Shown piece by piece: positions 23,752 to 37,863 of a stretch of DNA of 45,180 nucleotides. Position 1 is the stretch's first letter. Every line of letters begins with the position of its first letter. Both the position numbers and the translations under genes were made by a program. The stretch comes from Bryobacteraceae bacterium (GTDB taxonomy: Bacteria > Acidobacteriota > Terriglobia > Bryobacterales > Bryobacteraceae), in NCBI GenBank assembly GCA_049511275.1, contig JBEKYE010000001.1, forward strand, positions 1-45,180, read 5' to 3'. The notes below the pieces were generated by a model. It was not told where the DNA came from. It saw nothing but the letters and a program-made list of their open reading frames with translations, and did not search any database.

Positions 23752-25014
23752 CTACGGATACAGCCCGCGGATCCGGCAAGCTTCCGCCACGCGCCCGACG
23801 CCCAGCATGTTGGCCGCCAGCCGCATGTTGACCTTCTTGTCTTTGTGGATCTTCAGCACGTCGTTGAACGAACGCACCATGATCTTCTCCAGCTTCGCGT
23901 TCACGTCGTTCTCGTCCCAGAACAGGTGGTTCTCGTCCTGCACCCATTCGAAGTACGATACCGTCACGCCGCCCGCGTTGCACAGAATGTCCGGAATCAG
24001 GAACACGCCCTTCGTGTCGAGGATGCGATCGGCTTCCGGAGTGACCGGACCGTTGGCCGCTTCCGAAATGATCTTCGCGCGAACCGCTTCGGCATTCTCG
24101 TCCGTGATCGCGTTCTCGAGCGCCGCCGGAATCAGTACGTCGACCTGCAACGCCAGCAATTCATCCGGCCGGATGCTGTCCGCGCCTGGGAACCCGGCCA
24201 CCGAGCCGGTGACTTCCTTGAACTTCACCACCGCCGGAATATCCAGCCCCCGCGGGCTGTAGATGCAGCCCTTGGTATCGCTGCACGCCAGCACCTTCGC
24301 GCCCGCCTCGTGGAACAGTACGGCCGCGATCGATCCGGCATTGCCGAAGCCCTGCACCGCCACCGTCGCTCCCTTCATCGGGATCTTCAGGTGCTCCATG
24401 GCGCCGCGCGTCGTATAGTAGCAGCCGCGCGCCGTGGCTTCGTTGCGTCCCAGCGACCCGCCCAGGCTGATCGGCTTGCCCGTCACCACGCCCGTCACCG
24501 GATACCCCTTCATCATGCTGTAGGTGTCCATGATCCAGGCCATGATCTGCGGCGTGGTATAGACGTCCGGTGCCGGAATGTCTTTCTCCGGTCCGATGAT
24601 CGGCAGAATCGCGCTGGCATAGCGCCGCGTCATCCGCTCCAGCTCGCCCATCGACATGGTTTTCGGGTTGCAGGTTATGCCGCCCTTGCCGCCGCCGTAG
24701 GGAATGTTCACCACCGCGCACTTCCACGTCATCCACGTCGCCAGCGCTTTCACTTCGTCCAGCGTGACGTTCGGATGGTAACGGATGCCTCCCTTCGCCG
24801 GACCGCGCTGCGTGCTGTGTTGCACGCGGTAGCCCTCAAAGCGGACGATTTTGCCGCCGTCCATGCGGACCGGAACACTCACAATGAGCTCGCGCTCCGG
24901 ATACTTGATCATGGCGCGCACGTTCTCTTCGAGTTCCAGCGCGTTTGCCGCCAGATCGAAATTCTCCAGTGCTACTGCGTATGCGTTCTTCTCTTCTTTT
25001 GCGGTTGCTGGCAT
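23752..25014 (-). CDS. Glutamate dehydrogenase (Glu/Leu/Phe/Val dehydrogenase family, ~420-aa type)
   Basis: 'RGPAKGGIRYHPNVTLDEVKALATWMTWKCAVVNIPYGGGKGG' and the 'VAVQGFGNAGS' dinucleotide fold. I chose the start at Met 'MPATAKEEKNAY' (AGAGGGG upstream). The track start at 25107 is a TTG inside relic sequence. Confidence 0.85.
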   Translation of the reverse strand: MPATAKEEKNAYAVALENFDLAANALELEENVRAMIKYPERELIVSVPVRMDGGKIVRFEGYRVQHSTQRGPAKGGIRYHPNVTLDEVKALATWMTWKCAVVNIPYGGGKGGITCNPKTMSMGELERMTRRYASAILPIIGPEKDIPAPDVYTTPQIMAWIMDTYSMMKGYPVTGVVTGKPISLGGSLGRNEATARGCYYTTRGAMEHLKIPMKGATVAVQGFGNAGSIAAVLFHEAGAKVLACSDTKGCIYSPRGLDIPAVVKFKEVTGSVAGFPGADSIRPDELLALQVDVLIPAALENAITDENAEAVRAKIISEAANGPVTPEADRILDTKGVFLIPDILCNAGGVTVSYFEWVQDENHLFWDENDVNAKLEKIMVRSFNDVLKIHKDKKVNMRLAANMLGVGRVAEACRIRGLYP

Positions 25015-25043
25015 GGCGAACCCCTCTGGTTCTTCCGGTTTTC

Positions 25044-25072
25044 GGGGAGCCCTGGGTATTCCAGGGCCCCCC
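25044..25072 (-). promoter_or_regulatory. 12-bp GC-rich hairpin (one mismatch) between the two gdh genes
   Basis: GGGGAGCCCTGG-gtatt-CCAGGGCCCCCC, with no U-tract. It may be a gdhA terminator-like structure or a leader structure for the downstream gdh. Confidence 0.35.
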
Positions 25073-25093
25073 GCAACTTTCTCCTGCTCTTGC

Positions 25094-25139
25094 CCTAACG
25101 GATACAACCCGCGGGCCTGGTAAGCGTCCGCCGCGCGCC
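25094..25139 (-). pseudogene. Relic of the 3' end of a GDH gene paralogous to 23752-25014
   Basis: 25098-25140 aligns to 23754-23796 at 36/43 positions by hand. It would translate as GRAADAYQARGLYP, against the real C-terminus GRVAEACRIRGLYP. Similarity stops at the stop codon. Confidence 0.5.
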
Positions 25140-26501
25140 CTAGACGAGACCCTGCGCCATCATCGCTTCCGCCACCTTGGAGAAGCCGGCGATGTTTGCG
25201 CCCATCACATAGTCGCCCGCAGCCCCGTACTCCTTGGAGGTTTCATAAGCCGCGTCGTGGATCGCAGTCATGATGTGCTTCAGCTTGTCATCGACTTCTT
25301 CCCGGGTCCAGGAAATACGCATCGAGTTCTGCTCCATCTCGAGGCCCGAGGTGGCCACGCCGCCGGCGTTTGCCGCCTTGCCGGGGCCGTATAGGGTTTT
25401 CGCCGCCTGGAAAACTTCCACGCCTTCGGGTGTCGTCGGCATATTGGCGCCTTCGCCCACCACGTAGCAGCCGTTCTTGACCAGCATCCTGGCGTCCTCG
25501 CCGCTGATTTCGTTCTGCGTCGCGCTCGGGAAGGCGCACTGCGCCGGTATGCTCCAGGGCTTCATGCCCGGGAAGAACTCGGCCTTCGGGAACTTCTTCC
25601 CATACTCTTTGATGCGCCCGCGCCGGTTGTTCTTCAGGTCCATCACCCAGGCCAGCTTCTCCGCGTTGATTCCAGCCTCATCGTAAATCGTGCCTTCGGA
25701 ATCGGAGAGAGTGACGCACTTGGCGCCGAGCTGGTTGAGTTTTTCCACCGTGTACTGCGCCACATTGCCCGCGCCGGAAACCAGGCACGTCTTGTTCTTA
25801 AAATTCTCGCCGCGCGTGTGCAGCATTCGTTCCGAGAAATACACGCAGCCATAACCCGTGGCTTCGGGCCGTATGAGCGATCCGCCCCAGGTAAGACCCT
25901 TGCCTGTCAGCACGCCCGTGAATTCGTTCCGGATGCGCTTGTACTGGCCGAACAGGAACCCGATCTCGCGTCCGCCCACGCCGATATCGCCCGCCGGGAC
26001 GTCCGTGTCCGGGCCGATGTGCCGGACGAGTTCCGTCATGAAACTCTGGCAGAAGCGCATGACCTCGGCGTCCGACTTCCCTTTGGGATCGAAGTCCGAT
26101 CCTCCCTTGCCGCCTCCCATGGGGAGCGTTGTGAGCGAGTTCTTGAGGACCTGCTCGAAACCCAGGAACTTCAGGATGCCGAGGTTAACAGTCGGATGGA
26201 ATCTCAGCCCGCCCTTGTACGGACCGATGGCGCTCGAAAACTCAATGCGGTAGCCGCGGTTGACCTGAACCCGCCCCTTGTCATCCTGCCAGGGGACGCG
26301 GAACATGATGACACGCTCCGGTTCGACCAGACGGTCGAGTATTCGCGATTCGACGTATTCCGGATGCCGGTCCAACGCCGGTGTTATCGACCGAAAGACT
26401 TCGGTAACGGCTTGCAGAAACTCCGGTTCGCCTGCATTCCGCCTCTTGACGGTCTCGAAGACTTGGTCTACGTATGTTGTTGCGTATGCTACTGTGCTCA
26501 C
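25140..26501 (-). CDS. gdhA: NADP-type hexameric glutamate dehydrogenase (E. coli GdhA-like, ~450 aa)
   Basis: 'EPEFLQAVTEVFRSITP', 'YKGGLRFHPTVNLGILKFLGFEQVLKNSLTTLPMGGGKGG' and 'VSGAGNVAQY'. The GTG start has AAGGAG 7 nt upstream. Confidence 0.9.
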   Translation of the reverse strand: MSTVAYATTYVDQVFETVKRRNAGEPEFLQAVTEVFRSITPALDRHPEYVESRILDRLVEPERVIMFRVPWQDDKGRVQVNRGYRIEFSSAIGPYKGGLRFHPTVNLGILKFLGFEQVLKNSLTTLPMGGGKGGSDFDPKGKSDAEVMRFCQSFMTELVRHIGPDTDVPAGDIGVGGREIGFLFGQYKRIRNEFTGVLTGKGLTWGGSLIRPEATGYGCVYFSERMLHTRGENFKNKTCLVSGAGNVAQYTVEKLNQLGAKCVTLSDSEGTIYDEAGINAEKLAWVMDLKNNRRGRIKEYGKKFPKAEFFPGMKPWSIPAQCAFPSATQNEISGEDARMLVKNGCYVVGEGANMPTTPEGVEVFQAAKTLYGPGKAANAGGVATSGLEMEQNSMRISWTREEVDDKLKHIMTAIHDAAYETSKEYGAAGDYVMGANIAGFSKVAEAMMAQGLV

Positions 26502-27076: not shown

Positions 27077-28099
27077 ATGTCAAACGGATTTCGTCCCTGG
27101 ATTTCCCTGCTCGCTTTCGCGCTTCTCGCCGCGCCCCTCGCCCCCGCGGCCGACGATCTGCGCATTTCCGGTCCCTTCACGCATGACAACCTCTCGGTCT
27201 TCCTGATCCACGGCGCCCGCCCGGACGCCGCCAAAGGAAAACTCCTGACGCTGCACGAAGCCATGGATGCCAAGAAGGTAGTGGTCTACGAGACCGGCAC
27301 CGTGAATGCGCTCTCCATCGAGAACCAGTCGTCCCAGGACGTGTACATCCAGTCCGGAGACATCGTCAAAGGAGGCCGCCAGGATCGTGTCCTGACCACC
27401 GACCTCATCCTGCCCGCGCACTCCGGCAAGCTCGCCATCTCCTCCTTCTGCGTGGAGCAGGGCCGCTGGACCAGGCGCGGTAACGAGCCCGCCGATCAGT
27501 TCGGCACATCCGACAAAGTGTTGGCCTTCAGGCAACTCAAGATGGCCGTGCACGAACCAAACGCCCAGATGCAAGTCTGGAACGAGGTGGCGAATGCGCG
27601 CCAGTCGCTGGCGGAAACGGTGACGGTCACTGGCGCCGTCGCGGCTACGCCACCCGCCATGCCCCGTTCCACCAGCATGCAAATGGCGCTCGAAAGCAAA
27701 CCCGTGGTCGACGCCACCGCCGCCTACATCAAAGATCTCGCCAAAATCGTCGACAGCCAGAACGACGTCGTGGGCTTCGTCTACGCCATCAACGGCGCCG
27801 TCAACAGCGGCGATGTGTATGCCTCGAACGACCTGTTCCGGCGCATGTGGCCGATGCTTCTCGAATCGAGCGCCACCGAAGCCCTCGCCGAGCGCGCCAA
27901 AGCCGCCAAGACCGCAATACCCGACTTGGCCACCGTGAAGAGCTTCCTCGCCGACGCCGACGGCGGCCGGGAATCCTCGAAGCAGACCAATGGCCGTCTG
28001 TCGATCGCTAGGAAGGAATCGCCAAGAACGTTGCTCTTCGAAACCCGCGACCCGAATCAGGCCGGCGGCTGGATCCACAAGAGCTACGTCGTCAAATAA
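27077..28099 (+). CDS. Secreted conserved protein of unknown function (resembles the family I recall being annotated 'ARPP-1 family domain')
   Basis: 340 aa. The signal peptide is 'WISLLAFALLAAPLAPAAD'. The core is 'LSVFLIHG...LTLHEAMDAKKVVVYETG...IENQSSQDVYIQSGDIVKGGRQDRVL...PAHSGKLAISSFCVEQGRW'. Confidence 0.5.
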   Translation: MSNGFRPWISLLAFALLAAPLAPAADDLRISGPFTHDNLSVFLIHGARPDAAKGKLLTLHEAMDAKKVVVYETGTVNALSIENQSSQDVYIQSGDIVKGGRQDRVLTTDLILPAHSGKLAISSFCVEQGRWTRRGNEPADQFGTSDKVLAFRQLKMAVHEPNAQMQVWNEVANARQSLAETVTVTGAVAATPPAMPRSTSMQMALESKPVVDATAAYIKDLAKIVDSQNDVVGFVYAINGAVNSGDVYASNDLFRRMWPMLLESSATEALAERAKAAKTAIPDLATVKSFLADADGGRESSKQTNGRLSIARKESPRTLLFETRDPNQAGGWIHKSYVVK

Positions 28100-28155: not shown

Positions 28156-28734
28156 CTACGTCCCCTTCGTCCGCGCCCGGTCCATGTACTTTCGCGTCCC
28201 CAGATCCAGCCGGATCCAGTCGCCGTTCTTCACAAACTGCGGCACCATCACCTCGACGCCGTTCGTCAGTTTCGCCGGCTTGAAGGCGCTGTCGGCCTGC
28301 ATGTGCATCGGCGGCGCGGTGTCGGCGATCTTGACTTCCAGCACATCGGGAAAAACCACGCTCACCGGACGGCTCTCCAGGAATTCGACCCCGATCTTCG
28401 TCCCGGCTTCCAGAAACACCGCCCGCTCGCCCACCACCGCTAGCGGAATCTCGGTCTGCTCGTACGATTCCGGATCCATGAAGCAGCACTGGTCGGCATC
28501 GCCATACAGAAATTCCATCGGCCGCTTCTGCAGAGCCACTTCCTCGAACCTCAGCTCCGAACGGAAACTGTGCTCCCAAAAAGTGCCTGTATTCAGATTC
28601 TGCAGGCGTGTGTGCGCCACGCCTCCCATTCTTCCCTGCCCGGGATGGTACTCCACGGCGGTCACTCGATAAATCTGCCCTTCGTAACGAATGGCCATCC
28701 CGGGACGCAGTTGCGATGCCGTAATCATTGCCAC
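28156..28734 (-). CDS. efp: Elongation factor P family protein with extended, Lys-less modification loop (EfpL/YeiP-like)
   Basis: 192 aa with full three-domain EF-P similarity ('ASQLRPGMAIRYEGQIYRV...', 'KPAKLTNGVEVMVPQFV'). The loop reads HPGQGRMGGVA instead of KPGKGQA. ATG at 28728 with GGAGGT upstream is the likely true start. Confidence 0.85.
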   Translation of the reverse strand: MAMITASQLRPGMAIRYEGQIYRVTAVEYHPGQGRMGGVAHTRLQNLNTGTFWEHSFRSELRFEEVALQKRPMEFLYGDADQCCFMDPESYEQTEIPLAVVGERAVFLEAGTKIGVEFLESRPVSVVFPDVLEVKIADTAPPMHMQADSAFKPAKLTNGVEVMVPQFVKNGDWIRLDLGTRKYMDRARTKGT

Positions 28735-28984: not shown

Positions 28985-29542
28985 TTACTTTTCGACGTCC
29001 ATGAAGGAATACACGATCATGTGGCAAACGATCATGTGGGCATCTTCGATGCGCCCCACGTGGGGCACCGGCACCTGGATGTTGAGCTGCGCCTTGGGGC
29101 CGAGCTTGCCGCCATCGCGGCCGGTGAGCGAGAGCGTCCGGCAGCCGAGTTGATTGGCGTAGTCCATGGCGCGGAGGACGTTGGGCGAGTTGCCGGAGCT
29201 GCTGATGCCCATGAAGAGATCGCCGGGCTGGGCGAAGTTCTTGAGCTGCTCGACGAAGACTGCGTCGTAGCTGACATCGTTGGCATAGGCGGTAAGCGTG
29301 GCTAACTGGTCGGTGAGAGCCATGATGCGGAAGCGCGATTGGCGGTTGAAGCTCGCGCCTTTGACGATGTCGCAGGCGAAGTGAGAGGCGGTCGAAGCGC
29401 TGCCGCCGTTGCCGCACACGAAGATGCACCGGCCGGCGGCGCGGGCGTCCCGGAACCATTCGATGGCCTGGTTCACTTTGGCCAGATCGATGGCCTCGAT
29501 CGCCTGCAGGAGGTCCGTTTTGTAACCTTGCGGATAAGTCAT
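28985..29542 (-). CDS. gmhA: SIS-domain sugar-phosphate isomerase, GmhA (sedoheptulose-7-P isomerase)-like
   Basis: 185 aa. 'CGNGGSASTASHFACD', 'GISSSGNSPNVLRA', 'LTGRDGGKLG' and 'IQVP...RIEDAHMIVCHMI' align with the E. coli GmhA motifs as I recall them. Confidence 0.75.
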   Translation of the reverse strand: MTYPQGYKTDLLQAIEAIDLAKVNQAIEWFRDARAAGRCIFVCGNGGSASTASHFACDIVKGASFNRQSRFRIMALTDQLATLTAYANDVSYDAVFVEQLKNFAQPGDLFMGISSSGNSPNVLRAMDYANQLGCRTLSLTGRDGGKLGPKAQLNIQVPVPHVGRIEDAHMIVCHMIVYSFMDVEK

Positions 29543-30396
29543 GAAGGTTTCCGTTGTCCGGCCAGCACCAGCGCTCCGTAGAGCACGCTGTCATCGCCCA
29601 GGGCCGCCGGCACCACCTCGATGCGCGCAGCCGACCAGCCGGTGATCTGCCGCCGCAATTCCACGCGCAACGGCGCGAAGAGGGGATCGCCCGCTTTGCC
29701 GATGCCGCCGCCGATTACGATCCGCGCCGGGTTCAATAACATGATACACGCCTTGAGACCGAGCGCGAGATCCACCACATAGCGGCGGACAAATTCGGGA
29801 TCGGCGAGCAGATCCTTGGCGGTGCGGCCATGGTCGCGCTCCAGCCACAGGCCGCTGCACATGCGCTCGAAGCAGCCTTGGGCGCCGCACAGGCAGGTCG
29901 GGCCATCGGGACGGATGGTGAGATGGCCGATCTCGCCGGCGTAGGAATCGGCGCCCCGCCAGACATTGCCGGCGCTGTAGATGCCGCCGCCGATGCCGGT
30001 GGAGAGGGTCATGTAGAAGAGCGGATCGGCGCCTTGGCCGGCGCCGTGCGTAGCTTCGCCGATAGCGCCTACGTTGGCGTCGTTGTCCATGATTACCGGA
30101 ATGCCAAGCTCCTTTTCCAGGTGCGCCGTGAACGGGAAATCGCGCCAGCCGCCCACGTGCGTCGAGAGCGCTACACGCTGGGCGGCGAAATCGACGGGAC
30201 CGCCGAAGCCCACGCCGCAGTTGTCGAAAGTGAGGTCGGCTCGCCAGGCGCGGGTCATGGCGGCGAGCTGGGAGAGCATCCAGTCGCGGCCGCCCTGCTT
30301 GTCGGTCGAGCGGGATTCGCGCCGCATGAGGCGGCCGTCCTGGAAAGCGGCGATGGAGAACTTCGTGCCGCCGATATCGATGGCCAGGGTGGTCAT
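29539..30396 (-). CDS. ROK-family sugar kinase
   Basis: I chose the start at 'MTTLAIDIGGTKFS' because it makes an ATGA overlap with the upstream gene. The ROK zinc motif 'CLCGAQGCFE' and 'GEIGH' are present. Confidence 0.85.
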   Translation of the reverse strand: MTTLAIDIGGTKFSIAAFQDGRLMRRESRSTDKQGGRDWMLSQLAAMTRAWRADLTFDNCGVGFGGPVDFAAQRVALSTHVGGWRDFPFTAHLEKELGIPVIMDNDANVGAIGEATHGAGQGADPLFYMTLSTGIGGGIYSAGNVWRGADSYAGEIGHLTIRPDGPTCLCGAQGCFERMCSGLWLERDHGRTAKDLLADPEFVRRYVVDLALGLKACIMLLNPARIVIGGGIGKAGDPLFAPLRVELRRQITGWSAARIEVVPAALGDDSVLYGALVLAGQRKPS

Positions 30397-31376
30397 GGCA
30401 GGCTTCCGGCGGCTTGGATCTCGGCGGGTGAAGCCGTGCCCGTGCCCTTCTTCATGATGGTGATGCCGGCTACCCGGTTGCCGAACCTGCATGCCGCCGC
30501 CGGGTCACGGGTTACGCTGAGGGCCACCGCCGTGCCGGCGGCGAAGCTGTCGCCGGCTCCGCAGATGTCTACCGGGTTGTCTGCCGGATTGGTTTTGACC
30601 CAGGTTTCACCCTGACTGTCGAGGAGCAGGGCGCCGTGGCTGCCGTGGGTCACGATCATCAGCGGAGCCTTCGCCCGGCGGCGCAACTCCGCATAGTCCA
30701 GGCGGCCCAACAAGGATCGGCAGGCCGTCTCCGCTTCCCGCCGGTTGGGCTTGAGGATCAAGTTGCGAAACTGCTCGATGCGGGTGCGGGAATCGGCCAG
30801 CATCACTTTCTCGGGATACTGGAGAGCGAGATCGGCCAGCAGGTTCCGCAGCGCCGGCGTGACTACGCCGCCCTGGCTGGTCTCGGCCTGATCGGATACC
30901 AGGATCACATCGAAGCCATCGATGGTCTGCCGCAGGCGATCGAGGATGAGCCGCTCGACCGCGGCCGGGACGGGGTGAACGTTGATGAAATCGATGCGCG
31001 GCTGATCTTCGATGCCGGTGGACTGATTGATCAGCTTGGTATAAGTAAAGGTCTGCATGTGATCGCTGCGAACACTCAGGCCGGAGTCGATGCCGCGGCG
31101 GCTGAGGGCACGGGAGAGTTCGTCGCCATGACCGTCATGACCGATGGCGCCCAGGACCGCTACCCGGCCGACGCCGAGCGAGGCGAGATTGTTGGCCACG
31201 GTGCCGCCGGCGCCGGGCGTAACTTCGACGGAGACCACGCCGGTCCGCGGGATGCCGGTCTCGCGCGACGGCTCGGCGGCCGAGGGGTCGTAGGTGCACC
31301 AGCGGTCCAGGCAGATATCGCCGACCACCAGGGCGGAGATTCGCGGCAGCGCGCCGAGGATCTCTGCGGTGGTCAT
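30393..31376 (-). CDS. PfkB-family kinase resembling the heptose-7-phosphate kinase domain of HldE/RfaE (HldA-like); no adenylyltransferase domain
   Basis: 'ALVVGDICLDRW...PGAGGTVANNLASLG' matches the HldE domain-I N-terminus as I recall it. 'DICGAGDSFAAG' is the PfkB signature. The start at 31376 makes an ATGA overlap with the upstream stop. Confidence 0.7.
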   Translation of the reverse strand: MTTAEILGALPRISALVVGDICLDRWCTYDPSAAEPSRETGIPRTGVVSVEVTPGAGGTVANNLASLGVGRVAVLGAIGHDGHGDELSRALSRRGIDSGLSVRSDHMQTFTYTKLINQSTGIEDQPRIDFINVHPVPAAVERLILDRLRQTIDGFDVILVSDQAETSQGGVVTPALRNLLADLALQYPEKVMLADSRTRIEQFRNLILKPNRREAETACRSLLGRLDYAELRRRAKAPLMIVTHGSHGALLLDSQGETWVKTNPADNPVDICGAGDSFAAGTAVALSVTRDPAAACRFGNRVAGITIMKKGTGTASPAEIQAAGSLP

Positions 31377-32356
31377 GCTCCCTCCTGGATCGCGCGCTCC
31401 AGAATCGCCCGGCGGAGAGCCGGGAACGTGGCGCGGTGATCGCCGCAGAAGTAGAAGCTGGAGCCGCCGTCGGCCACGGTACGCACCAGCATAGTTTTGT
31501 GCGGCCGGAAATAGTAGCCGGGATTGGTTTTGGGAAGCTCTTCCTGGATGTTGTCGCCGATCGGGAGGAGATCGAAGACGGCGGTCGCAACATCGCGGAT
31601 GGCGCGGCCCTCCTGGCGGGCCACGTTGCGGCTCATGGCGAGCGCTTTGAGGTAGACTTCGGGCGCCATGACGGCGGAGCCGAAGCTGAGCATAACGCCG
31701 CCTTCCAGCCGCTCCACGGTGGCGGCGAAGATCAGGAAGTCGCGATAGCTGGCGGCGCCCAGTGCGGCGCCGTCGCAGTTGGGATGTTCGTGCAGAATGT
31801 CGTAGCCGACGCCGACGTGAACGGTGACCGGGACCGAGCAGCGCCAGGCCGCCGCCAGGACGCTGAGATCGCGATGCGGATAATCGCTCCTCTCGATGCG
31901 CCGGCCGACATTCTCGCCGAGGCCGAGGGACAGGGCGGCGGCCTCGGAGATCCAGTCGTTGAGCTCGCCGGTTTCCCGCCACAGGCCGAATTCTCCGGTG
32001 CGGATGTAGCGGGCCACGCTCTCGGTGGTGGCCCCGATGCGGGCAAGCTCGTAATCGTGGATGGCGCCGGCGCCGTTGAGGGCGATATGGTCGATGAAGC
32101 CGCGCTCCACCAGGTCGATGATCTGGCGATTGACGCCGGCGCGGAGCACGTGCGCGCCCATCATGAGGATCCGGGCCGCGCCGCGCCGGCGCGCGGCGAC
32201 CACTCGGGCGGCCACCTCGGCGAGTCGCGGGTGGGCATAGAGGTCCGGCGCTTCCTCTAGGGCCAGCCAATGATCCACGGCGAGATCGTGGACGCGCTCG
32301 GCCAGCGGTTTGACCACCAGGCGCGAACGGTCGAAGACTGGATATTTACTTTCCAT
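31373..32356 (-). CDS. Deoxyhypusine-synthase-fold (DHS-like) protein, divergent; function unknown
   Basis: 327 aa starting at Met 'MESKYPVF'. 'ILMMGAHVLRAGVNRQIIDLVERGFIDHIALNGAGAIHDYELA' aligns by eye to DHS '[43 protein letters not shown]'. Coding status is secure. The fold assignment is unverified. Confidence 0.5.
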   Translation of the reverse strand: MESKYPVFDRSRLVVKPLAERVHDLAVDHWLALEEAPDLYAHPRLAEVAARVVAARRRGAARILMMGAHVLRAGVNRQIIDLVERGFIDHIALNGAGAIHDYELARIGATTESVARYIRTGEFGLWRETGELNDWISEAAALSLGLGENVGRRIERSDYPHRDLSVLAAAWRCSVPVTVHVGVGYDILHEHPNCDGAALGAASYRDFLIFAATVERLEGGVMLSFGSAVMAPEVYLKALAMSRNVARQEGRAIRDVATAVFDLLPIGDNIQEELPKTNPGYYFRPHKTMLVRTVADGGSSFYFCGDHRATFPALRRAILERAIQEGA

Positions 32357-33191
32357 TGGGAAACAGGGTAGCCAGCAATTCTTCCCGGCAGAGGAAGTTG
32401 GGAATGATGAAATCGGCTCCGACACTGCTGAGGCGCCGGCGCTTCCAGGCGTCGACGGCCTGGCAGGCGGGCTCGTCGGTGGCGACTCCCACGGCCACTC
32501 CGCCCACTTCCTTGATATTTTCAATCTCCACGTAGCCATCCCCGAAGCAGAGCAACTGGTCGCCGCGGCATTCGGCGCTGGCGATGACACGCTCGATCAG
32601 GATCTTCTTGGAAAAACTCTGGTAATCGTCCAGGGCGCCGTAGACGCCGCCATCGAAGTAACGGTCCACGTCGAGGAGGCGCGCTTCCTGGCGCATGAAC
32701 TCCTGATCCGTGCCGCTGGCGAGGTACAGCTTCAAGCCGCGCGCCCGCAGTGCTTCGACGAGAGCGCGGGCGCCGGGGACGAGGTACTTTTCGGGAGAGG
32801 CGCCTTGCGCCAGGTCGTCGAGGCGGTGGCGGATTTTCCGGTGGAGGCGCCCCAGGTAGATGCGCTTGTACTCAAGCGGATCGAGGGGCTTGCCGCCGTA
32901 GCCGCGGACCTGATCGGCAAACTCGATCATCTGGTAGATGGTCTGCTTCCCGGTGAGGCGGCCCACGCGCTCCTCCACCATCGCGCGCAGTTGTTCCACC
33001 GGCTCGCCGCTATTCAGGTCGGCCAGAGTTTCCACCATCATGGGGATCATCACCTCCATCCAGCCGGATCGGATGAGGGAGAGGGTGCCGTCAAAATCAA
33101 AGAGGCAGACCCGGGCGTTTCGGGCGGAGACGCCCGGGTGGAGCTGTTCGACCATAAGGGTGTTAGCACTATTGTAAGAGCGAACCAGCAT
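32346..33191 (-). CDS. HAD-superfamily hydrolase (subfamily IA-like phosphatase)
   Basis: 'CLFDFDGTLSLIRSG', 'LYLASGTDQ' and 'CFGDGYVEIENIK' are HAD motifs I-IV. The start is uncertain (33191 or 33155). The rest of track ORF 32346..34040 is an artefactual extension. Confidence 0.7.
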   Translation of the reverse strand: MLVRSYNSANTLMVEQLHPGVSARNARVCLFDFDGTLSLIRSGWMEVMIPMMVETLADLNSGEPVEQLRAMVEERVGRLTGKQTIYQMIEFADQVRGYGGKPLDPLEYKRIYLGRLHRKIRHRLDDLAQGASPEKYLVPGARALVEALRARGLKLYLASGTDQEFMRQEARLLDVDRYFDGGVYGALDDYQSFSKKILIERVIASAECRGDQLLCFGDGYVEIENIKEVGGVAVGVATDEPACQAVDAWKRRRLSSVGADFIIPNFLCREELLATLFPNGK

Positions 33192-33278: not shown

Positions 33279-34265
33279 TTGCGCGCGACCCCGCTTGGGG
33301 AGTATCGTCATCTCGTGATTGTCACGCGACGTACCATTCTCACCGCCATATCCGCGGCCGCCGCCGTTCAGGGTCAGCGCAACCGCCCGCCGAACTGGAC
33401 ACCCAGACTCGGCGTTCTGATGCAGTACTCGGATTCCAACCTGGAGTTCGTCAAAGCCGAAGGCTTTACCAGCGCGCAGCTCCGGCTCAATCCCGATCAA
33501 CTGGACGATGCCGCCATCGCCGCCATCAAGGACAAAATCGCCCGCAGCGGTATCTACATTTCCTCGCTGGCCGTGGATGGCAACCACATCGATCCCGACC
33601 CGGCCAGGCGCGATCGCCAGAACACCTACACCCTCAAATGCCTGGATCTGTGCGGCAAGCTTGACATCCCCAACATCGGTGGCCAGAGCGGCACCATTCC
33701 GAATATGGGTCTGCAACAGCAGGTGGACGAGATAGTCAAGGTTTACACCGAAAAGTACTTCGTTTCCTGCGAGAAGAACAAAGTGCGCATCCTGTGGGAG
33801 CCCTACGCCGGCGGGCCGAACATCGCCACCGGGCCGGTGGGCTGGGAAGCGCTCTTCAAAGCCTTCCAAGACAGCCCGCACGTGGGTCTGCAGTTCGACC
33901 CGTCGCACCTGGTGTGGCAGTTCATGGACCCGGTGGCGGCAGCGCGCGAATTCGCCGACAAGATTTACGACGTCCACCTCAAAGACACGGAGATTCTCTG
34001 GCCTCTGGTGAAACGCGGCGGCATCCAGCCCGTGAATCACGCCCGCTGGTGGCGTTTCCGCTTACCCGGATACGGCTCGGTGGATTGGAAAGGCTTTTTC
34101 ACAGTGCTCTCCGAAGTCGGATACACGGGGGCCATGAACATCGAGAACGAAGACGAGTTCTACTACCCGGCGTACAGCGGCGCGAACTTCACGGAACAGT
34201 ACAAACGCGGCTTCCGCCTGGCACACGAGTTCCTCAAGACCCTGGTGCCTCCGGTAAAGGCATAA
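33279..34265 (+). CDS. Xylose-isomerase-like TIM-barrel protein (sugar phosphate isomerase/epimerase family) with Tat-like leader
   Basis: 328 aa. It has the 'TRRTILTAISAAAAV' leader and the typical 'FDPSHLVWQ...HLKD...G.VDW' pattern of this family. Confidence 0.7.
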   Translation: MRATPLGEYRHLVIVTRRTILTAISAAAAVQGQRNRPPNWTPRLGVLMQYSDSNLEFVKAEGFTSAQLRLNPDQLDDAAIAAIKDKIARSGIYISSLAVDGNHIDPDPARRDRQNTYTLKCLDLCGKLDIPNIGGQSGTIPNMGLQQQVDEIVKVYTEKYFVSCEKNKVRILWEPYAGGPNIATGPVGWEALFKAFQDSPHVGLQFDPSHLVWQFMDPVAAAREFADKIYDVHLKDTEILWPLVKRGGIQPVNHARWWRFRLPGYGSVDWKGFFTVLSEVGYTGAMNIENEDEFYYPAYSGANFTEQYKRGFRLAHEFLKTLVPPVKA

Positions 34266-34285: not shown

Positions 34286-37200
34286 CTAAAAATAAAGGCG
34301 CAGCGAAAGTTGCAGGTTTCGTGCCAGGCCCGTCATGCTGGTCACTTTCCCGAACGTGGACGACGTTGGATTGTACTGCGGTCCGCTCCAGTTGGGGTGG
34401 TTCGGGAAATCAAAAGCCTCCGCGCGGAATTCGAACCCGGTCCGCTCGTTGATGGCGAACTTCTTATAGAGGCCGGCATTCCAGTCCTGAAAGCCCGGCG
34501 CGTAGATCTCGTCGCGAACGCCCGGCTGCAGGTTGAACGTGCCCGCGGGCGGCGCCGTGAACAGCGGCTGGCCGCTCGAATTCGTGACGGCGAAATACTG
34601 GTTCGGACTGGCAGCCCCGGCCCCTCCCGCGAATTGATGCGTGATCGTCGGAGTGCCGTTCAATACCCAGTACTCTCCGGCCGTATTGCCGCACCCAACG
34701 CTGCCGGTTTCTCCAACGCCGGCCACGTCGTTGCTGCCCATGACACCGCAAGGAGTTCCGGTCTGGAACTGCATGATGGCGCTCACCTGCCATCCACCAA
34801 GCAGTTTGGCGGCCCTGTTACTCCCGCTTCGGAAAAACGGCAGCGAGTAAATCACATTGATCACCGCCATCTGCCGCGTATCGAACTCCGAAGGTCCCCA
34901 CATATTCGTCGTGTTGTAGGTATCCGGAACGATGTCGCGGTAATTCGAATTGCCGTCCATGCTCTTGGACAGGGTATACGAAAAGCCGAATGCCAGACCG
35001 CTCGCCAGCCTGCGGTTCCAGGCGATCTGCAGCGCGTGATACATGGAAGTGGATACGTTCTCTTCCATCTGGATGGACGCGAATCCCGCGTAGGGTCGCA
35101 GGTAATTGGCATTAATGCCCGGATTGGCCTGCAGCGCCCCGGCTTGGGGCTGGTTGATGTCGAACGCCTCCGGCAAATGCAGCCCGCGGTGCCCCACATA
35201 CGCCACTTCCAGCGTAGACTTGCCGAAGAGTTCCCGCTGCACGGTGAAGTTCCAGTTCCAGGCCTCCGGCGGCCGGTTATTCCGCGCCAGCGTGGTGACG
35301 GTCAGGGGAGGTGTCGCCGTCCCGCCCAAGCTCGCTCCGGGATTGTCCACCGACACGTTGGCCACCGTCACGAACGGCTGAAATGGGGAATTCGCACCCG
35401 GAAAGATATTGTCCAGCAGGCCGAAACGCGTTAAAAACCGCCCCAGGCCGGTGCGGATCACGGTCTTCGAGTCGATCTGGTAAGCCACGCCCAGCCGCGG
35501 CTGGAACTGGTAATTGATTTGCCCGTAGTAGCTGGGCAGACCCTGGAACATGCTGTTATACGCCGAGCTGCACGCCTGCACTACGCCGTGCCCGCAGGCG
35601 TCGCTGGGCCAGCTGCTGCCTGGAATCACCATCCCATCGTAGAGATTCCCCGTGCCGTTAATCACGTTGCCGGTTTGCGGATTGATCTTGGGAGCCGTGC
35701 TCGCACTGTAAAGCGCCGGATCGAAAAACACCTGGTTGCCCCACAGGGCTTTGTAGGGAACCGTGATGGTCTGGCGTATCCCGTAAGTGACCGAAAGCTT
35801 CTGGCTTACCCTCCAGGCGTCCTGCGCGAACCATTCGTACAGGTAGCCGCGATAGATGGTGTAGGCGCGCTGTCCGATCTCGGTGTAGCTATCGGCCAGC
35901 CCCAGCGCCATATTGGCAATGCCCACGCCGGCCGTCGCACCCAGTCCCGACCGGGCGTCGGTAAACGTAAACGTGCCGTTCTGATTGTTGCTGCCGCCCG
36001 GCACGCTGCTTACGTTGATCTGGTCGCCGTCGTTCTCTCCCGACTTCTCGAAGTAGAACCCTGCCTTGAACGTGTGGTTTCTCCAAACCTTCGTCACGAT
36101 GTCGCCGGCCGTATAGATCGGGCCGGTGGAATGCGACGGGTATGGTCCGCCCGCCAGGCTGGAGAAGTTCGGAATGGTGACGGTGGGAATCTTGCTGGCT
36201 ATGTCTTTGCCCACCGGGAACAGGTAGGGATAATTGATGCCGAATGCGGTGTTCGCATTGAAACCCGGGGCGGATCGAATCACCGGGATATAAACGTCGT
36301 CGAGGCTGACCGTGATGCGCGCTTCATTGATCAGCGTCGGGCTGATGGTTCGCGTCCACGCCAACGAGCCAGCCTGGTTGGGACGGTTGAAGGCTTTGGG
36401 CGTCAGGCCCGAGCCTTGATCGAAGGGATCCAGCTCGTAGTAGGCCAGCGCGGTGCGGCGAAACTGTATGCGGTCCTTCGCGTCGGGCAGTATGTCGGAA
36501 TTGATGGTTTCCTTCCGCTGATTCTCCGGCTGCGAAGCCTGGGCGATCCAGTTCTGGTTGCCGTTCACTAATCCGTTGGGCGCCGGGTACGCGTTCATAA
36601 TGGCCATGCCGTTGTGGCTCAGCCGGGTCGTCGGAATGATGTTCCCCGGGAACGGCGTGCAACCTGCCGCGCCTACCGAGGGGCAGGTGTTGGGATCGTA
36701 TATCACTTCCGGCTTGCTGTAGAAGATGTTGGGGCCCAGCAACTCGCTGAAATTGCCCTGCCGCATCAGCGTCGTTGGGACTTCCAACGTCTGGGTCTGT
36801 CCGTTACGGTACCGCGACCACTCCTGCCCGACAAAAAAGAACATTTTCCCCTTTGGAAGGACATGCGGAATCCACACCGGGCCGCCCAAGGCACCACCGA
36901 AATCATTGAACCGGAATGGCGACTGAAAGTTTGTAAGCGTGCTCAGGTTGCGGCTCCAGGTGTTGGCGTTCAGGTCCGAATTCCTGAAATACTCGTACAA
37001 CCCTCCATGGAACTCCTGGCTGCCGCCCTTGGTGACAATCCGAATCTGTCCTCCGGCCGCCCGCCCGTACTCCGCGGCATAGTCGGCCGTCAGAACCTGC
37101 ACTTCCTGCGTGGAATCCTGGTCCACCACGCCGATGCTGGTTCCGTTGGCGCGCGTGCGCAGCGCGGGAGCGCCGTCGAACAGGATCTGCGTGTCCGGGG

Positions 37201-37768
37201 AACGCGCGCCATTGACGGCGTAACCGCCGCTAGTCAGACTGAAGCTGAAATCGCCGGCCGTCGAGCCGCTGCGTACACCCGGCAGCATCGACGCCAGGAA
37301 GAGTGGATCGCGGCCATTCAGCTCCAACGAGTCGATCTGCGCCCTGGTGATGTCTCGCTCCACCGAAGCCGACTCTGTCTGCAGAGCCGTCGCTGTACTG
37401 GTCACCTCCACCGTCTCGGTGGCGCTGCCGATCGTAAGCGCTGCGTCCAGAGAGAGCGCCGTATCCGCGTTGAGTTTATTGTGAGTGCTATTGAATTTCT
37501 TGAATCCGGTGGCCTCCGCCATCACCGTATATAAACCGGGCTGCAGGTTGGGCACGGTATAGTAGCCGGAGTCGTTGGCGGTGATCACGTGTTCTTCGCC
37601 GGTAGCTTCGTTCTTTGCAACGATTTTCGCCTTTGGGACCACTCTTCCGGATGGATCTTTCACATATCCGCTGATTGATCCGTAATCCGATTGCGCATAT
37701 GCGGCAATGGACAAAAGGAAAAGCGCGGCAAGCGCCAGTAACGTCTTGGACGATCGAAACAGGCTCAT
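34286..37768 (-). CDS. TonB-dependent outer-membrane receptor with N-terminal carboxypeptidase-regulatory-like domain
   Basis: About 1160 aa. It has a signal peptide, 'GSISGYVKDPSGRVVPKAKIVAKNEATGE...GYYTVPNLQPGLYTV', and a C-terminal beta-barrel ending in F. ATG at 37768 has GAGAGG 5 nt upstream. The track start is GTG at 37774. Confidence 0.85.
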   Translation of the reverse strand: MSLFRSSKTLLALAALFLLSIAAYAQSDYGSISGYVKDPSGRVVPKAKIVAKNEATGEEHVITANDSGYYTVPNLQPGLYTVMAEATGFKKFNSTHNKLNADTALSLDAALTIGSATETVEVTSTATALQTESASVERDITRAQIDSLELNGRDPLFLASMLPGVRSGSTAGDFSFSLTSGGYAVNGARSPDTQILFDGAPALRTRANGTSIGVVDQDSTQEVQVLTADYAAEYGRAAGGQIRIVTKGGSQEFHGGLYEYFRNSDLNANTWSRNLSTLTNFQSPFRFNDFGGALGGPVWIPHVLPKGKMFFFVGQEWSRYRNGQTQTLEVPTTLMRQGNFSELLGPNIFYSKPEVIYDPNTCPSVGAAGCTPFPGNIIPTTRLSHNGMAIMNAYPAPNGLVNGNQNWIAQASQPENQRKETINSDILPDAKDRIQFRRTALAYYELDPFDQGSGLTPKAFNRPNQAGSLAWTRTISPTLINEARITVSLDDVYIPVIRSAPGFNANTAFGINYPYLFPVGKDIASKIPTVTIPNFSSLAGGPYPSHSTGPIYTAGDIVTKVWRNHTFKAGFYFEKSGENDGDQINVSSVPGGSNNQNGTFTFTDARSGLGATAGVGIANMALGLADSYTEIGQRAYTIYRGYLYEWFAQDAWRVSQKLSVTYGIRQTITVPYKALWGNQVFFDPALYSASTAPKINPQTGNVINGTGNLYDGMVIPGSSWPSDACGHGVVQACSSAYNSMFQGLPSYYGQINYQFQPRLGVAYQIDSKTVIRTGLGRFLTRFGLLDNIFPGANSPFQPFVTVANVSVDNPGASLGGTATPPLTVTTLARNNRPPEAWNWNFTVQRELFGKSTLEVAYVGHRGLHLPEAFDINQPQAGALQANPGINANYLRPYAGFASIQMEENVSTSMYHALQIAWNRRLASGLAFGFSYTLSKSMDGNSNYRDIVPDTYNTTNMWGPSEFDTRQMAVINVIYSLPFFRSGSNRAAKLLGGWQVSAIMQFQTGTPCGVMGSNDVAGVGETGSVGCGNTAGEYWVLNGTPTITHQFAGGAGAASPNQYFAVTNSSGQPLFTAPPAGTFNLQPGVRDEIYAPGFQDWNAGLYKKFAINERTGFEFRAEAFDFPNHPNWSGPQYNPTSSTFGKVTSMTGLARNLQLSLRLYF

Positions 37769-37863
37769 AGACACCTCTCACTTGGAAGTTGAAAACAAAG
37801 CACTGTCAGCCGGTTGGCCGAGCATAAGACCCGATAGCAATCACTTACAACCCTGAGAGGAAA

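What the first reader, a model, noticed from the sequence alone, without database searches (positions are those of the whole stretch)
31373..32356. Divergent deoxyhypusine-synthase-fold protein apparently lacking the catalytic lysine
By eye, three blocks align with human/archaeal DHS as I recall it. First, 'ILMMGAHVLRAGVNRQIIDLVERGFIDHIALNGAGAIHDYE' aligns with '[41 protein letters not shown]'. Second, 'SVLAAAWRCSVPVTVHVGVGYD' aligns with '[22 protein letters not shown]'. Third, 'GVMLSFGSAVMAPEVYLKALAM' aligns with '[20 protein letters not shown]'. In the third block the DHS Lys that forms the enzyme-butylimine intermediate (GGGVVKHH) aligns with Ala-Pro. If the fold assignment holds, the chemistry cannot be canonical deoxyhypusine or homospermidine synthesis. 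Bacterial DHS homologues have been reported, with function mostly unknown. This one is more divergent and sits inside a sugar-kinase operon.
Basis: inference. Interest (0 to 1): 0.65.

Follow-up and report, generated by a model that had tools for sequence, protein, structure and literature searches.

The report
DHS-fold enzyme in heptose-like operon
This gene encodes a member of a large, unstudied enzyme family (NCBIfam "GSU2086 family") that has the fold of deoxyhypusine synthase but is not one; gene order and gene fusions tie it to the enzymes that make activated seven-carbon sugars (heptoses) for the bacterial envelope, where its reaction is still unknown.

Summary
The ORF is real: window 31373-32356, minus strand, 327 aa, in a Bryobacteraceae-like acidobacterium.

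**Family and fold.** It is a full-length member of NCBIfam NF052581, "GSU2086 family protein" (377.7 bits, cut-off 250), function unknown. The DHS-like fold assignment holds. Profile-profile probability against a DS-family alignment is 97-98%. An AlphaFold model (pLDDT 92) hits LOR/SDH, AgrE/ArgZ and deoxyhypusine synthase structures (Foldseek E 5e-8 to 1e-5, TM about 0.5).

**The lysine claim.** The Lys of GGGVVKHH is human K287. The catalytic K329 lies in SWGK, 42 residues later. That region cannot be aligned reliably. No lysine is conserved there family-wide.

**Not a DHS.** This follows on other grounds, including a separate DS-family gene carrying both motifs.

**Context.** The module HAD-X-PfkB(-ROK-SIS) recurs in three phyla. 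Family members are fused to GmhA-, HldE-I-, HldE-II- and phosphatase-type domains.

**Best reading.** It is an enzyme of a heptose-type sugar-phosphate pathway, probably using a bound dinucleotide for a redox-neutral step.

**Rejected.** The adjacent efp is chance (0 of 80 loci). Nickel-pincer dependence is not obligatory.

This scan has met the family before on other DNA (34 findings).

The parts
32346..33191 (-). HAD-superfamily phosphatase-type gene (281 aa), first gene of the operon. Its last 11 nt overlap the start of the DHS-fold gene.
   Evidence: Pfam PF00702, E 5.4e-14. Overlap read. Found directly upstream of the family gene in 75 of 80 related loci. HAD-X fusion proteins exist.
31373..32356 (-). 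The finding: a GSU2086-family protein (P0001, 327 aa, subtype 'X1') with a DHS-like Rossmann fold. Near-invariant family residues are H69, H100-D101-x-E103, E112, H180, D186, D206, K237, D262, R284 and R292. E233 is somewhat less conserved (109 of 131 representatives).
   Evidence: NF052581: 377.7 bits, cut-off 250, E 4.6e-113. AF2 pLDDT 92.4. Foldseek. hhalign against the DS family, 97-98%. Residue conservation over 150 representatives.
30393..31376 (-). PfkB-family sugar kinase (327 aa), nearest to HldE/RfaE domain I (heptose-7-phosphate kinase) but far below its cut-off. ATGA overlap with the preceding gene.
   Evidence: PF00294, E 1.4e-31. TIGR02198: 139.6 bits against cut-off 345. Downstream neighbour in 76 of 80 loci. 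Junction read.
29539..30396 (-). ROK-family sugar kinase (285 aa, no HTH domain). ATGA overlap with the preceding gene.
   Evidence: PF00480, E 2.6e-54. Present in 44 of 80 related loci and in an Anaerolineae locus. Junction read.
28985..29542 (-). SIS-domain sugar-phosphate isomerase (185 aa), nearest to GmhA (sedoheptulose-7-phosphate isomerase) but below its cut-off. ATGA overlap with the preceding gene. Last gene of the coupled unit.
   Evidence: PF13580, E 6.2e-22. TIGR00441: 127.4 bits against cut-off 209.45. Present in 42 of 80 loci. Junction read.

Best explanation
**Shown.**
- P0001 is a cytoplasmic member of the uncharacterised GSU2086 family.
- The family is a separate branch of the deoxyhypusine-synthase-like Rossmann superfamily. 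By sequence it is closest to the LOR/SDH-AgrE ornithine cyclodeaminase domain.
- It is neither a deoxyhypusine nor a homospermidine synthase.
- It is the middle gene of a translationally coupled operon: HAD phosphatase, X, HldE-I-like kinase, ROK kinase, GmhA-like isomerase.
- This operon is a divergent second copy of heptose-pathway logic. The genome has a near-canonical gmhB/rfaE-I/gmhA/rfaE-II set and a second, stand-alone family copy elsewhere.

**Inferred.**
- The module takes a free or phosphorylated seven-carbon (or similar) sugar through kinase, isomerase, anomeric kinase and phosphatase steps.
- X acts on the resulting sugar phosphate. This is most likely next to the phosphatase step, that is, on the 1,7-bisphosphate or the 1-phosphate.
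- X does this with a tightly held NAD-type dinucleotide in the ancestral pocket. It removes and returns a hydride, so the reaction is redox-neutral (an epimerisation or isomerisation). This is the style shared by DHS, the cyclodeaminase relatives and the unrelated heptose epimerase HldD.
- The near-invariant His/Asp/Glu cluster (H69, H100, D101, E103, E112, H180, D186, D206, D262, and the less conserved E233) would supply acid-base catalysis.
- R21, K237, R284 and R292 would hold the phosphates.
For: **Family membership.**

**Fold.** AF2 pLDDT 92.4. Foldseek top hits are 3C2Q, 6LRH/6LRG, 6JUY, 7CMC, 8PUT and 1DHS, at E 5e-8 to 1e-5. hhalign gives 97.1% local and 98.3% global against the DS family. 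It gives 76% over 156 columns against the genome's own TIGR00300 protein, with a shared H-D-x-E motif. The family profile hits AgrE at E 3e-6. AgrE was crystallised with NAD+ (6LRG title).

**Pathway link.**
- HAD is upstream in 75 of 80 related loci and PfkB downstream in 76 of 80. ROK is present in 44 and SIS in 42.
- The same module occurs in Armatimonadota and Anaerolineae, the latter behind a sugar ABC transporter.
- Natural fusions join the family domain to HAD, SIS, PfkB, PfkB+HAD, cytidylyltransferase-like and DUF89-phosphatase+cytidylyltransferase domains.
- The partner domains' best NCBIfam hits are gmhA, rfaE_dom_I and rfaE_dom_II, up to 169 bits against a cut-off of 181.5.
- The stand-alone subtype sits next to a canonical rfaE-I gene in G045 and G142.
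- In G. sulfurreducens, GSU2086 lies between hldE and gmhA, and all three share a Tn-seq electrode-growth defect (PMC5585712).

**Coupling.** Gene overlaps read.

**Selection.** Strong purifying selection: 2297 clusters at 50% identity, with an invariant polar core.
Against: - No cofactor or substrate was tested.
- Several acidic NAD-contacting positions of DHS (human E137, D238, D342, recalled from the literature) pair with His or variable residues in this family. NAD binding is therefore not assured.
- The window's kinase and isomerase score far below the heptose equivalog cut-offs, so the sugar may not be a heptose.
- This operon has no nucleotidyltransferase.
- Transposon polarity could explain the Geobacter phenotype.
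- In the 201-genome phylum sample, 64 genomes have the family at the cut-off and 35 have HldD, with 3 having both, while a heptose-type kinase is found in 176. So about half the sampled genomes have neither the family nor HldD, and the step is dispensable for a heptose pathway as such.
Confidence: 0.45

Rival explanations
1. X is a cofactor-independent or metal-dependent sugar-phosphate enzyme. The ancestral dinucleotide pocket binds the substrate itself (ADP-heptose or a sugar bisphosphate). Three invariant histidines at the C-terminal ends of strands beta1, beta2 and beta3 (H69, H100, H180) bind a divalent metal or phosphates. The reaction is an isomerisation, epimerisation or phosphomutase-type step without hydride transfer.
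For: - H69, H100 and H180 are conserved in 119/127, 132/137 and 136/142 representatives.
- They fall where the DS-family alignment has its NAD-contacting loops, and acidic DHS positions are replaced.
- Four to five conserved Arg/Lys residues suit a polyphosphorylated ligand.
Against: - The glycine-rich loops of the dinucleotide site are kept: G67, G74, G95 and G226.
- The H-D-x-E motif is shared with the cyclodeaminase relatives, which bind NAD+ or its nickel-pincer analogue.
Confidence: 0.25
2. X uses a nickel-pincer nucleotide (NPN or its adenine-dinucleotide form) instead of NAD, like the ornithine cyclodeaminases of TIGR00300, its nearest sequence relatives.
For: - TIGR00300 is annotated as nickel-pincer dependent. 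A 2026 paper cites Desguin 2025 for this (PMC13524815).
- The genome has a TIGR00300 gene and a LarC fragment at a contig end.
- LarC is found in 61 of 64 family-positive Acidobacteriota genomes, against 84 of 137 family-negative ones.
- LarC is also found in the Armatimonadota and Anaerolineae genomes carrying the module.
Against: - Family-positive genomes without LarC exist: G142 (92% complete, in a family with LarC in 0 of 9), G121 (95% complete), and two Chloroflexota genomes, G278 and G350. G278 and G350 each carry two family copies on a large contig.
- LarC is simply common in this phylum.
- No lar gene is adjacent in any locus examined.
Confidence: 0.06
3. X is a true DHS-type aminobutyl or aminopropyl transferase, possibly modifying the atypical EF-P encoded 250 bp downstream (EF-P is the bacterial homologue of the DHS substrate eIF5A).
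For: - DHS-like fold.
- An efp paralogue with an unusual loop (HPGQGRMGG) follows on the same strand, with no terminator-like site between.
Against: - efp is within 10 kb of the family gene in 0 of 80 related loci.
- The DS Pfam score is below cut-off.
- The K287/H288 position is Glu-Val and there is no SWGK motif.
- The candidate Lys287 is not conserved in the family.
- The genome has a separate DS-family gene with both motifs.
- All conserved partners are sugar-phosphate enzymes.
Confidence: 0.02
4. X is a non-catalytic subunit: a regulator, scaffold or ligand sensor for the kinase/phosphatase pair.
For: No activity is known. X is always paired or fused with enzymes.
Against: About a dozen invariant polar residues are clustered on loop ends of the Rossmann core across more than 2000 divergent clusters. 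Stand-alone copies lie away from any partner gene.
Confidence: 0.07

Closest known systems
NCBIfam NF052581, 'GSU2086 family protein' (type member Geobacter sulfurreducens GSU2086)
   Same: Full-length match well above the curated cut-off (377.7 against 250 bits; profile positions 2-300 of 301). Same conserved core. Same kind of neighbours (hldE and gmhA in Geobacter).
   Different: The family has no assigned function. P0001 belongs to a subtype (X1) with a 15-residue loop insert and a 'YYxRPxKT' motif. X1 sits in a HAD-X-PfkB-ROK-SIS module. The second copy in this genome (X2, contig C223) lacks both the insert and the motif and lies next to uvrA.
Deoxyhypusine synthase (Pfam PF01916; human DHPS 1DHS/6XXJ, P. 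horikoshii 7CMC)
   Same: Same Rossmann-type fold (Foldseek probability 1.0, TM 0.46-0.53). Homologous over at least the first two thirds (hhalign 97%). Equivalent glycine-rich loops after beta1, beta2 and beta4.
   Different: 10-18% identity and below the Pfam cut-off. Glu-Val where DHS has K287-H288. No SWGK (K329) motif. No conserved link to EF-P/eIF5A or to polyamine genes. The partners are sugar-phosphate enzymes.
LOR/SDH-type ornithine cyclodeaminase domain (TIGR00300; AgrE 6LRF-H, ArgZ 6JUY, M. maripaludis 3C2Q), reported to use NAD+ or a nickel-pincer adenine dinucleotide
   Same: Best sequence-profile hits in PDB (E 3e-6) and best Foldseek hits (E 5e-8). Shared 'H-D-x-E ... G-T-S/T' motif after beta2. 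Alignable over about 156 columns.
   Different: TIGR00300 score is 15.7 bits against a cut-off of 410.8. No N-terminal LOR domain. The context is sugar metabolism, not arginine or ornithine. LarC is not always present in genomes with the family.
HldD (ADP-L-glycero-D-manno-heptose 6-epimerase, TIGR02197): a possible functional analogue only
   Same: Works in the same pathway with a permanently bound nicotinamide cofactor in a redox-neutral reaction. In the 201-genome sample, HldD (35 genomes) and the family (64 genomes) overlap in only 3 genomes, all of one genus. The one locus examined there (G148) carries the X1 operon subtype. Within genus g70, three genomes have HldD only and two have the family only.
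   Different: Unrelated fold (SDR). No shared locus. About half of the sampled genomes have neither. The window's copy coexists with a second copy, and in genus g76 the family coexists with HldD, so X1 at least is not a simple HldD substitute.

Membership tests
GSU2086 family (NCBIfam NF052581) | Whole-protein HMM score above the curated cut-off (250 bits), with full-length coverage | tested here: met
   377.7 bits, E 4.6e-113. Residues 8-316 match profile positions 2-300 of 301.
GSU2086 family (NCBIfam NF052581) | Family-wide conserved core residues present | tested here: met
   H69, H100, D101, E103, E112, H180, D186, D206, K237, D262, R284 and R292 are all present in P0001. Each is conserved in at least 90% of 150 representatives. 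E233, also present in P0001, is conserved in 109 of 131.
DHS-like NAD/FAD-binding fold superfamily | Structural similarity of a confident model to solved members | tested here: met
   AF2 pLDDT 92.4, pTM 0.92. Foldseek against PDB gives 92 hits at E <= 1e-3. The top 50 are all LOR/SDH, AgrE/ArgZ or DHS, with TM 0.45-0.53.
Deoxyhypusine synthase (Pfam PF01916, EC 2.5.1.46) | Pfam gathering score (27 bits) | tested here: not met
   14.3 bits, E 0.024, residues 55-102 only. The NCBIfam DHS and homospermidine-synthase-related equivalog models score 11-18 bits against cut-offs of 350-500.
Deoxyhypusine synthase (Pfam PF01916, EC 2.5.1.46) | Catalytic lysine (human K329, motif S-W-G-K) that forms the enzyme-imine intermediate | tested here: inconclusive
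   - There is no SWGK-like motif.
- In the global hhalign alignment the DS WGK segment falls in a variable loop of P0001 (about residues 270-273), with no confidence.
- A topological argument would instead pair it with Lys287. That Lys is present in only 87 of 133 representatives and is Val in the genome's second copy.
- A structural superposition was not available to me.
Deoxyhypusine synthase (Pfam PF01916, EC 2.5.1.46) | G-G-G-x-x-K-H/N motif (human K287-H288) | tested here: not met
   The DS motif 'GGGtPKNF' pairs with 'GSAVMAPEVY', so K287 pairs with E233 and H288 with V234. The residue numbering of human DHS was checked on the printout.
Deoxyhypusine synthase (Pfam PF01916, EC 2.5.1.46) | Functional link to the eIF5A/EF-P substrate or to polyamine metabolism | tested here: not met
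   efp is adjacent here, but in 0 of 80 related loci. No polyamine gene appears in any locus examined.
Deoxyhypusine synthase (Pfam PF01916, EC 2.5.1.46) | Binds NAD+ | not testable with these tools
   Glycine-rich loops are kept, but several acidic NAD contacts of DHS are replaced. This needs biochemistry or docking on coordinates.
LOR/SDH-type ornithine cyclodeaminase (TIGR00300) | HMM score above cut-off (410.8 bits) | tested here: not met
   15.7 bits. The genome's true member scores 510.4 bits.
LOR/SDH-type ornithine cyclodeaminase (TIGR00300) | Dependence on nickel-pincer cofactor genes (LarC as marker) | tested here: inconclusive
   LarC is present in 61 of 64 family-positive Acidobacteriota genomes. 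It is not found in G142, G121, G278 or G350.
Nucleotide-heptose biosynthesis system (GmhA, HldE/HldA+HldC, GmhB, HldD) | Conserved adjacency or fusion with the pathway's enzyme types | tested here: met
   Neighbour counts in 80 loci. Fusions with gmhA-, rfaE_dom_I-, rfaE_dom_II- and phosphatase-type domains. Adjacent to a canonical rfaE-I gene in G045 and G142. Geobacter hldE-GSU2086-gmhA.
Nucleotide-heptose biosynthesis system (GmhA, HldE/HldA+HldC, GmhB, HldD) | The window's own neighbours are equivalogs of the heptose enzymes, and a nucleotidyltransferase is present | tested here: not met
   PfkB scores 139.6 against 345 bits and SIS 127.4 against 209.45 bits. The operon has no cytidylyltransferase-like gene. 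Near-canonical copies lie elsewhere, on C403, C361 and C551.

The most novel reading that the evidence does not exclude
The GSU2086 family catalyses a transformation of heptose phosphates that has not been assigned to any enzyme. One example would be 6-epimerisation at the sugar-phosphate level by a DHS-fold, hydride-shuttling enzyme. In that case the stand-alone subtype would be the non-SDR counterpart of HldD in the many bacteria that lack it. The window's subtype would serve a second, salvage-type module (ROK kinase plus divergent GmhA/HldE/phosphatase).
Probability: 0.3. Interest if true: 0.75.

Novelty: new member of a known kind. Interest (0 to 1): 0.5.

Why it matters
Heptoses are core components of lipopolysaccharide, and ADP-heptose is a potent innate-immune signal. 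The textbook pathway has five enzymes and is considered complete.

This protein family is large: more than 2000 clusters at 50% identity, and about a third of sampled Acidobacteriota genomes. It is fused in nature to each of four of those enzyme types and yet has no known reaction. That points to an unrecognised step or variant of the pathway.

It would also extend the deoxyhypusine-synthase fold from amine chemistry to sugar chemistry.

For this particular finding, the practical lesson is that the 'missing catalytic lysine' argument rested on the wrong residue.

Tried and rejected
1. **EF-P link.** efp lies 250 bp downstream with an odd loop, but no efp is within 10 kb in 80 related loci. Rejected as chance adjacency.
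2. **Obligatory nickel-pincer dependence.** LarC co-occurs often, but four family-positive genomes lack it. Demoted to a minor rival.
3. **X replaces GmhB.** A GmhB-like gene sits beside canonical rfaE-I in this genome, and GmhB-like genes are in most family-positive genomes. Rejected.
4. **In-situ displacement of hldD by X within genus g70.** The loci share no genes and neither context is informative. No support.
5. **Single-sequence AlphaFold.** The model was useless (pLDDT 34).
6. **Single-sequence comparisons.** phmmer against PDB found nothing significant. hhalign of the family alignment against one DS sequence gave only 6.9% probability. Alignments on both sides were needed.
7. **The search for related loci with the 31-sequence alignment.** It failed for lack of a conserved stretch. 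The 10-sequence alignment returned only close relatives.
8. **Literature.** No paper in the held library links deoxyhypusine synthase with gmhA or ADP-heptose. Desguin 2025 is not held.
9. **Placing the K329 equivalent by sequence.** The C-terminal third aligns only in global mode and without confidence. Left open.
Full report
**The object.** Window 31373-32356 (minus strand) is an ATG-started ORF of 327 aa, P0001.
- It is the second of five minus-strand genes joined by an 11-nt overlap and three ATGA overlaps:
  - HAD-type hydrolase, 32346-33191
  - P0001
  - PfkB kinase, 30393-31376
  - ROK kinase, 29539-30396
  - SIS-domain isomerase, 28985-29542
- Pfam and NCBIfam name the neighbours.
  - The kinase is nearest to HldE/RfaE domain I (139.6 bits, cut-off 345).
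  - The isomerase is nearest to GmhA (127.4 bits, cut-off 209.45).
- Database hit names place the organism in Bryobacteraceae, Acidobacteriota.

**Family.** P0001 is a full-length member of NCBIfam NF052581, 'GSU2086 family protein' (377.7 bits, cut-off 250, E 4.6e-113).
- Pfam gives only sub-threshold N-terminal hits: ArgZ-like_C_2nd at 20.2 bits and DS at 14.3 bits, both with cut-off 27.
- The family is large. It has 2297 clusters at 50% identity with E <= 1e-3, of which 459 have E <= 1e-30.
- It is found at the cut-off in 64 of 201 sampled Acidobacteriota genomes and in 6 of 151 sampled Chloroflexota genomes.
- The only paper in the held library that names GSU2086 is a Tn-seq study. There hldE (GSU2085), GSU2086 and gmhA (GSU2087) share an electrode-growth defect (PMC5585712).

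**Fold.**
- A single-sequence model failed. With a 74-sequence alignment, AlphaFold gave pLDDT 92.4 and pTM 0.92.
- In Foldseek against PDB, all of the top 50 hits are one of three kinds: the LOR/SDH protein 3C2Q, the C-terminal domains of AgrE/ArgZ (6LRF-H, 6JUY), or deoxyhypusine synthases (7CMC, 8PUT, 1DHS and others). E-values run from 5e-8 to 2e-5, probability is 1.0 and TM is 0.45-0.53.
- A family profile hits AgrE at E 3e-6 and P. horikoshii DHS at E 0.025 in PDB sequences.
- I built a 15-sequence DS-family alignment from Acidobacteriota genomes. hhalign of the family against it gives probability 97.1% and E 6.4e-11 over P0001 residues 25-223. In global mode it gives 98.3%.
- Against the genome's own TIGR00300 protein, the family profile aligns over 156 columns at 76% probability and shares an H-D-x-E motif.
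- So the fold assignment holds. By sequence the family is somewhat nearer to the cyclodeaminase branch than to DHS.

**The lysine.** Block 3 is reproduced only in global mode.
The printout of human DHS starts at chain index 276 with 'tgmiilgggvvkhh', which makes that Lys residue 287. The K of 'pdeavSWGK' is then residue 329.
- K329 is the residue that forms the enzyme-imine intermediate. This is established knowledge, and PDB 8A0F is titled 'variant K329A'.
- In the global alignment the DS motif PKNF pairs with P232-E233-V234-Y235 of P0001. So K287/H288 correspond to Glu-Val, not Ala-Pro.
- The real K329 segment falls in a low-confidence region of that alignment.
  - hhalign places it in a variable loop (about residues 270-273).
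  - Secondary-structure order (strand, loop, helix, strand, helix) would allow it to correspond to the helix 279-294. That helix carries Lys287 in 'YYFRPHKT'.
- Lys287 is present in only 87 of 133 representatives. It is Val in the second copy in this genome. The only near-invariant lysine is K237 (122 of 133).
- Conclusion: no lysine is conserved family-wide at the K329-equivalent place.

**Not a DHS, on other grounds.**
- The genome encodes a separate DS-family protein with both motifs, GGGVPKNY and TWGK (contig C560).
- It also encodes a true TIGR00300 protein.
- P0001 fails the DS and TIGR00300 cut-offs by wide margins.

**Context.**
- In 80 related loci with 10-kb flanks, HAD is directly upstream in 75 and PfkB directly downstream in 76. 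ROK is present in 44 and SIS in 42.
- The same module occurs in an Armatimonadota genome.
- It also occurs in an Anaerolineae genome, in the order sugar ABC transporter, SIS, ROK, HAD, X, PfkB.
- Among family representatives there are fusions with HAD, SIS (either end), PfkB, PfkB+HAD, cytidylyltransferase-like domains and DUF89-phosphatase+cytidylyltransferase.
- The partner domains' best NCBIfam hits are gmhA, rfaE_dom_I and rfaE_dom_II, and every fusion passes the NF052581 cut-off.
- Fusion to all four enzyme types of the ADP-heptose route is the strongest argument for the pathway assignment.

**Two subtypes.**
- The genome has a second copy on contig C223. It scores 397.6 bits with the family model and lies next to uvrA.
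- It lacks the 264-278 loop and the Lys287 motif.
- In 20 loci from the phylum sample, this 'X2' type is next to uvrA in 9. It is next to a SIS gene in 2 and next to a PfkB gene in 1. Three loci carry the 'X1' module HAD-X1-PfkB.
- In G045 and G142 the family gene adjoins a canonical-scoring rfaE-I gene.
- This genome also has near-canonical copies of the heptose genes:
  - gmhB with rfaE-I on C403
  - gmhA on C361
  - rfaE-II on C551
- No HldD reaches the cut-off in this genome.
- The window's operon is therefore a second, divergent, heptose-like module.

**Tests of specific roles.**
- *EF-P.* An efp paralogue with the loop HPGQGRMGG lies 250 bp downstream, but efp is near the family gene in 0 of 80 loci.
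- *Nickel-pincer cofactor.*
  - LarC is present in 61 of 64 family-positive genomes, against 84 of 137 family-negative ones, in the phylum sample.
  - It is also present in the two other-phylum genomes carrying the module.
  - It is not found in G142, G121, G278 or G350. G278 and G350 each carry two family copies on large contigs.
  - Nickel-pincer dependence is therefore not obligatory.
- *HldD substitute.*
  - HldD is over its cut-off in 35 of 201 genomes and overlaps the family in 3 genomes. All three are in genus g76. The one locus examined there (G148, L173) carries the X1 module.
  - In genus g70, three genomes have HldD only and two have the family only.
  - About 105 genomes have neither, although a heptose-type kinase is in 176 of 201.
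  - The X and HldD loci share no synteny.
  - This is suggestive for the X2 subtype. It is not shown, and kinship among genomes inflates such counts.
- *GmhB substitute.* Rejected.

**Mechanism proposed.**
- *Shown:* fold, family, operon coupling and pathway association.
- *Inferred:* X acts on a phosphorylated heptose-type intermediate next to the phosphatase step. HAD-X is the tightest pairing, and X is also fused to the adenylyltransferase type.
- *Inferred:* X uses a bound NAD-type dinucleotide for a redox-neutral hydride shuttle, with the invariant His/Asp/Glu cluster as acid-base groups and conserved Arg/Lys as phosphate binders.
- *Main rival:* the pocket binds the nucleotide-sugar or bisphosphate itself, and the three invariant histidines form a metal or phosphate site.

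**Novelty.** The family is catalogued but uncharacterised, and this gene is a new member of it. The scan's own notes show it has been met repeatedly on other DNA, with similar readings (34 findings). My tests agree with the heptose-pathway reading and with the later weakening of the nickel-pincer idea. They add two things: the correction of the lysine assignment, and the X1/X2 distinction within one genome.

Noticed in passing
window 28156-28728 (-): This is an EF-P paralogue (190 aa from ATG, with a GGAGG ribosome-binding site). Its loop reads HPGQGRMGG: Gln stands where E. coli EF-P has the modified Lys34 (position recalled from the E. coli sequence), with Arg two residues later. It barely reaches the NF001810 cut-off (161.8 against 161 bits). 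A better-scoring efp is on contig C159. What modification it carries, if any, is unknown.
   Followed up: partly
own genome, contig C223:3899-4840 (+), and loci L170-L189: A second GSU2086-family copy (subtype X2) lies directly after uvrA. It is followed by a CPBP-like membrane protein gene and an MtnA-like gene. The uvrA-X2 adjacency recurs in 9 of 20 Acidobacteriota loci examined. No functional reason is apparent.
   Followed up: partly
own genome, contigs C5:445-1665, C560:1262-2521, C339:5496-5570: The genome carries three branches of the DHS-like superfamily besides the finding's family. One is a TIGR00300 (nickel-pincer-type) ornithine cyclodeaminase. One is a bacterial DS-family protein with GGGVPK and TWGK motifs. 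There is also a LarC gene cut off by a contig end.
   Followed up: partly
window 27077-28099 (+): A gene for an ARPP-1 domain protein (PF20208, E 7e-58) lies convergent to efp. Its function is unknown.
   Followed up: no
window 23752-25107 and 25140-26501 (-): Two tandem glutamate/leucine/phenylalanine/valine dehydrogenase-family paralogues (451 and 453 aa).
   Followed up: no
window 33279-34265 (+), 34286-37774 (-), 38423-39565 (-), 39756-41858 (+): The surroundings look like a glycan or inositol-use region. They hold a xylose-isomerase-like TIM-barrel protein divergent from the operon, a 1162-aa TonB-dependent-type outer-membrane barrel, a Ca2+-dependent PI-PLC-like protein and a DUF5054 protein.
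   Followed up: no
family representatives P0174, P0175, P0173, P0165, P0228 and others (alignment A1, columns about 345-352): Many X1-type members have a '[DNS]-W-[RK]' motif in the loop that hhalign pairs with the DHS 'S-W-G-K' segment. P0001 has 'N-I-Q' there. This could be a remnant of the DHS active-site loop in part of the family.
   Followed up: no
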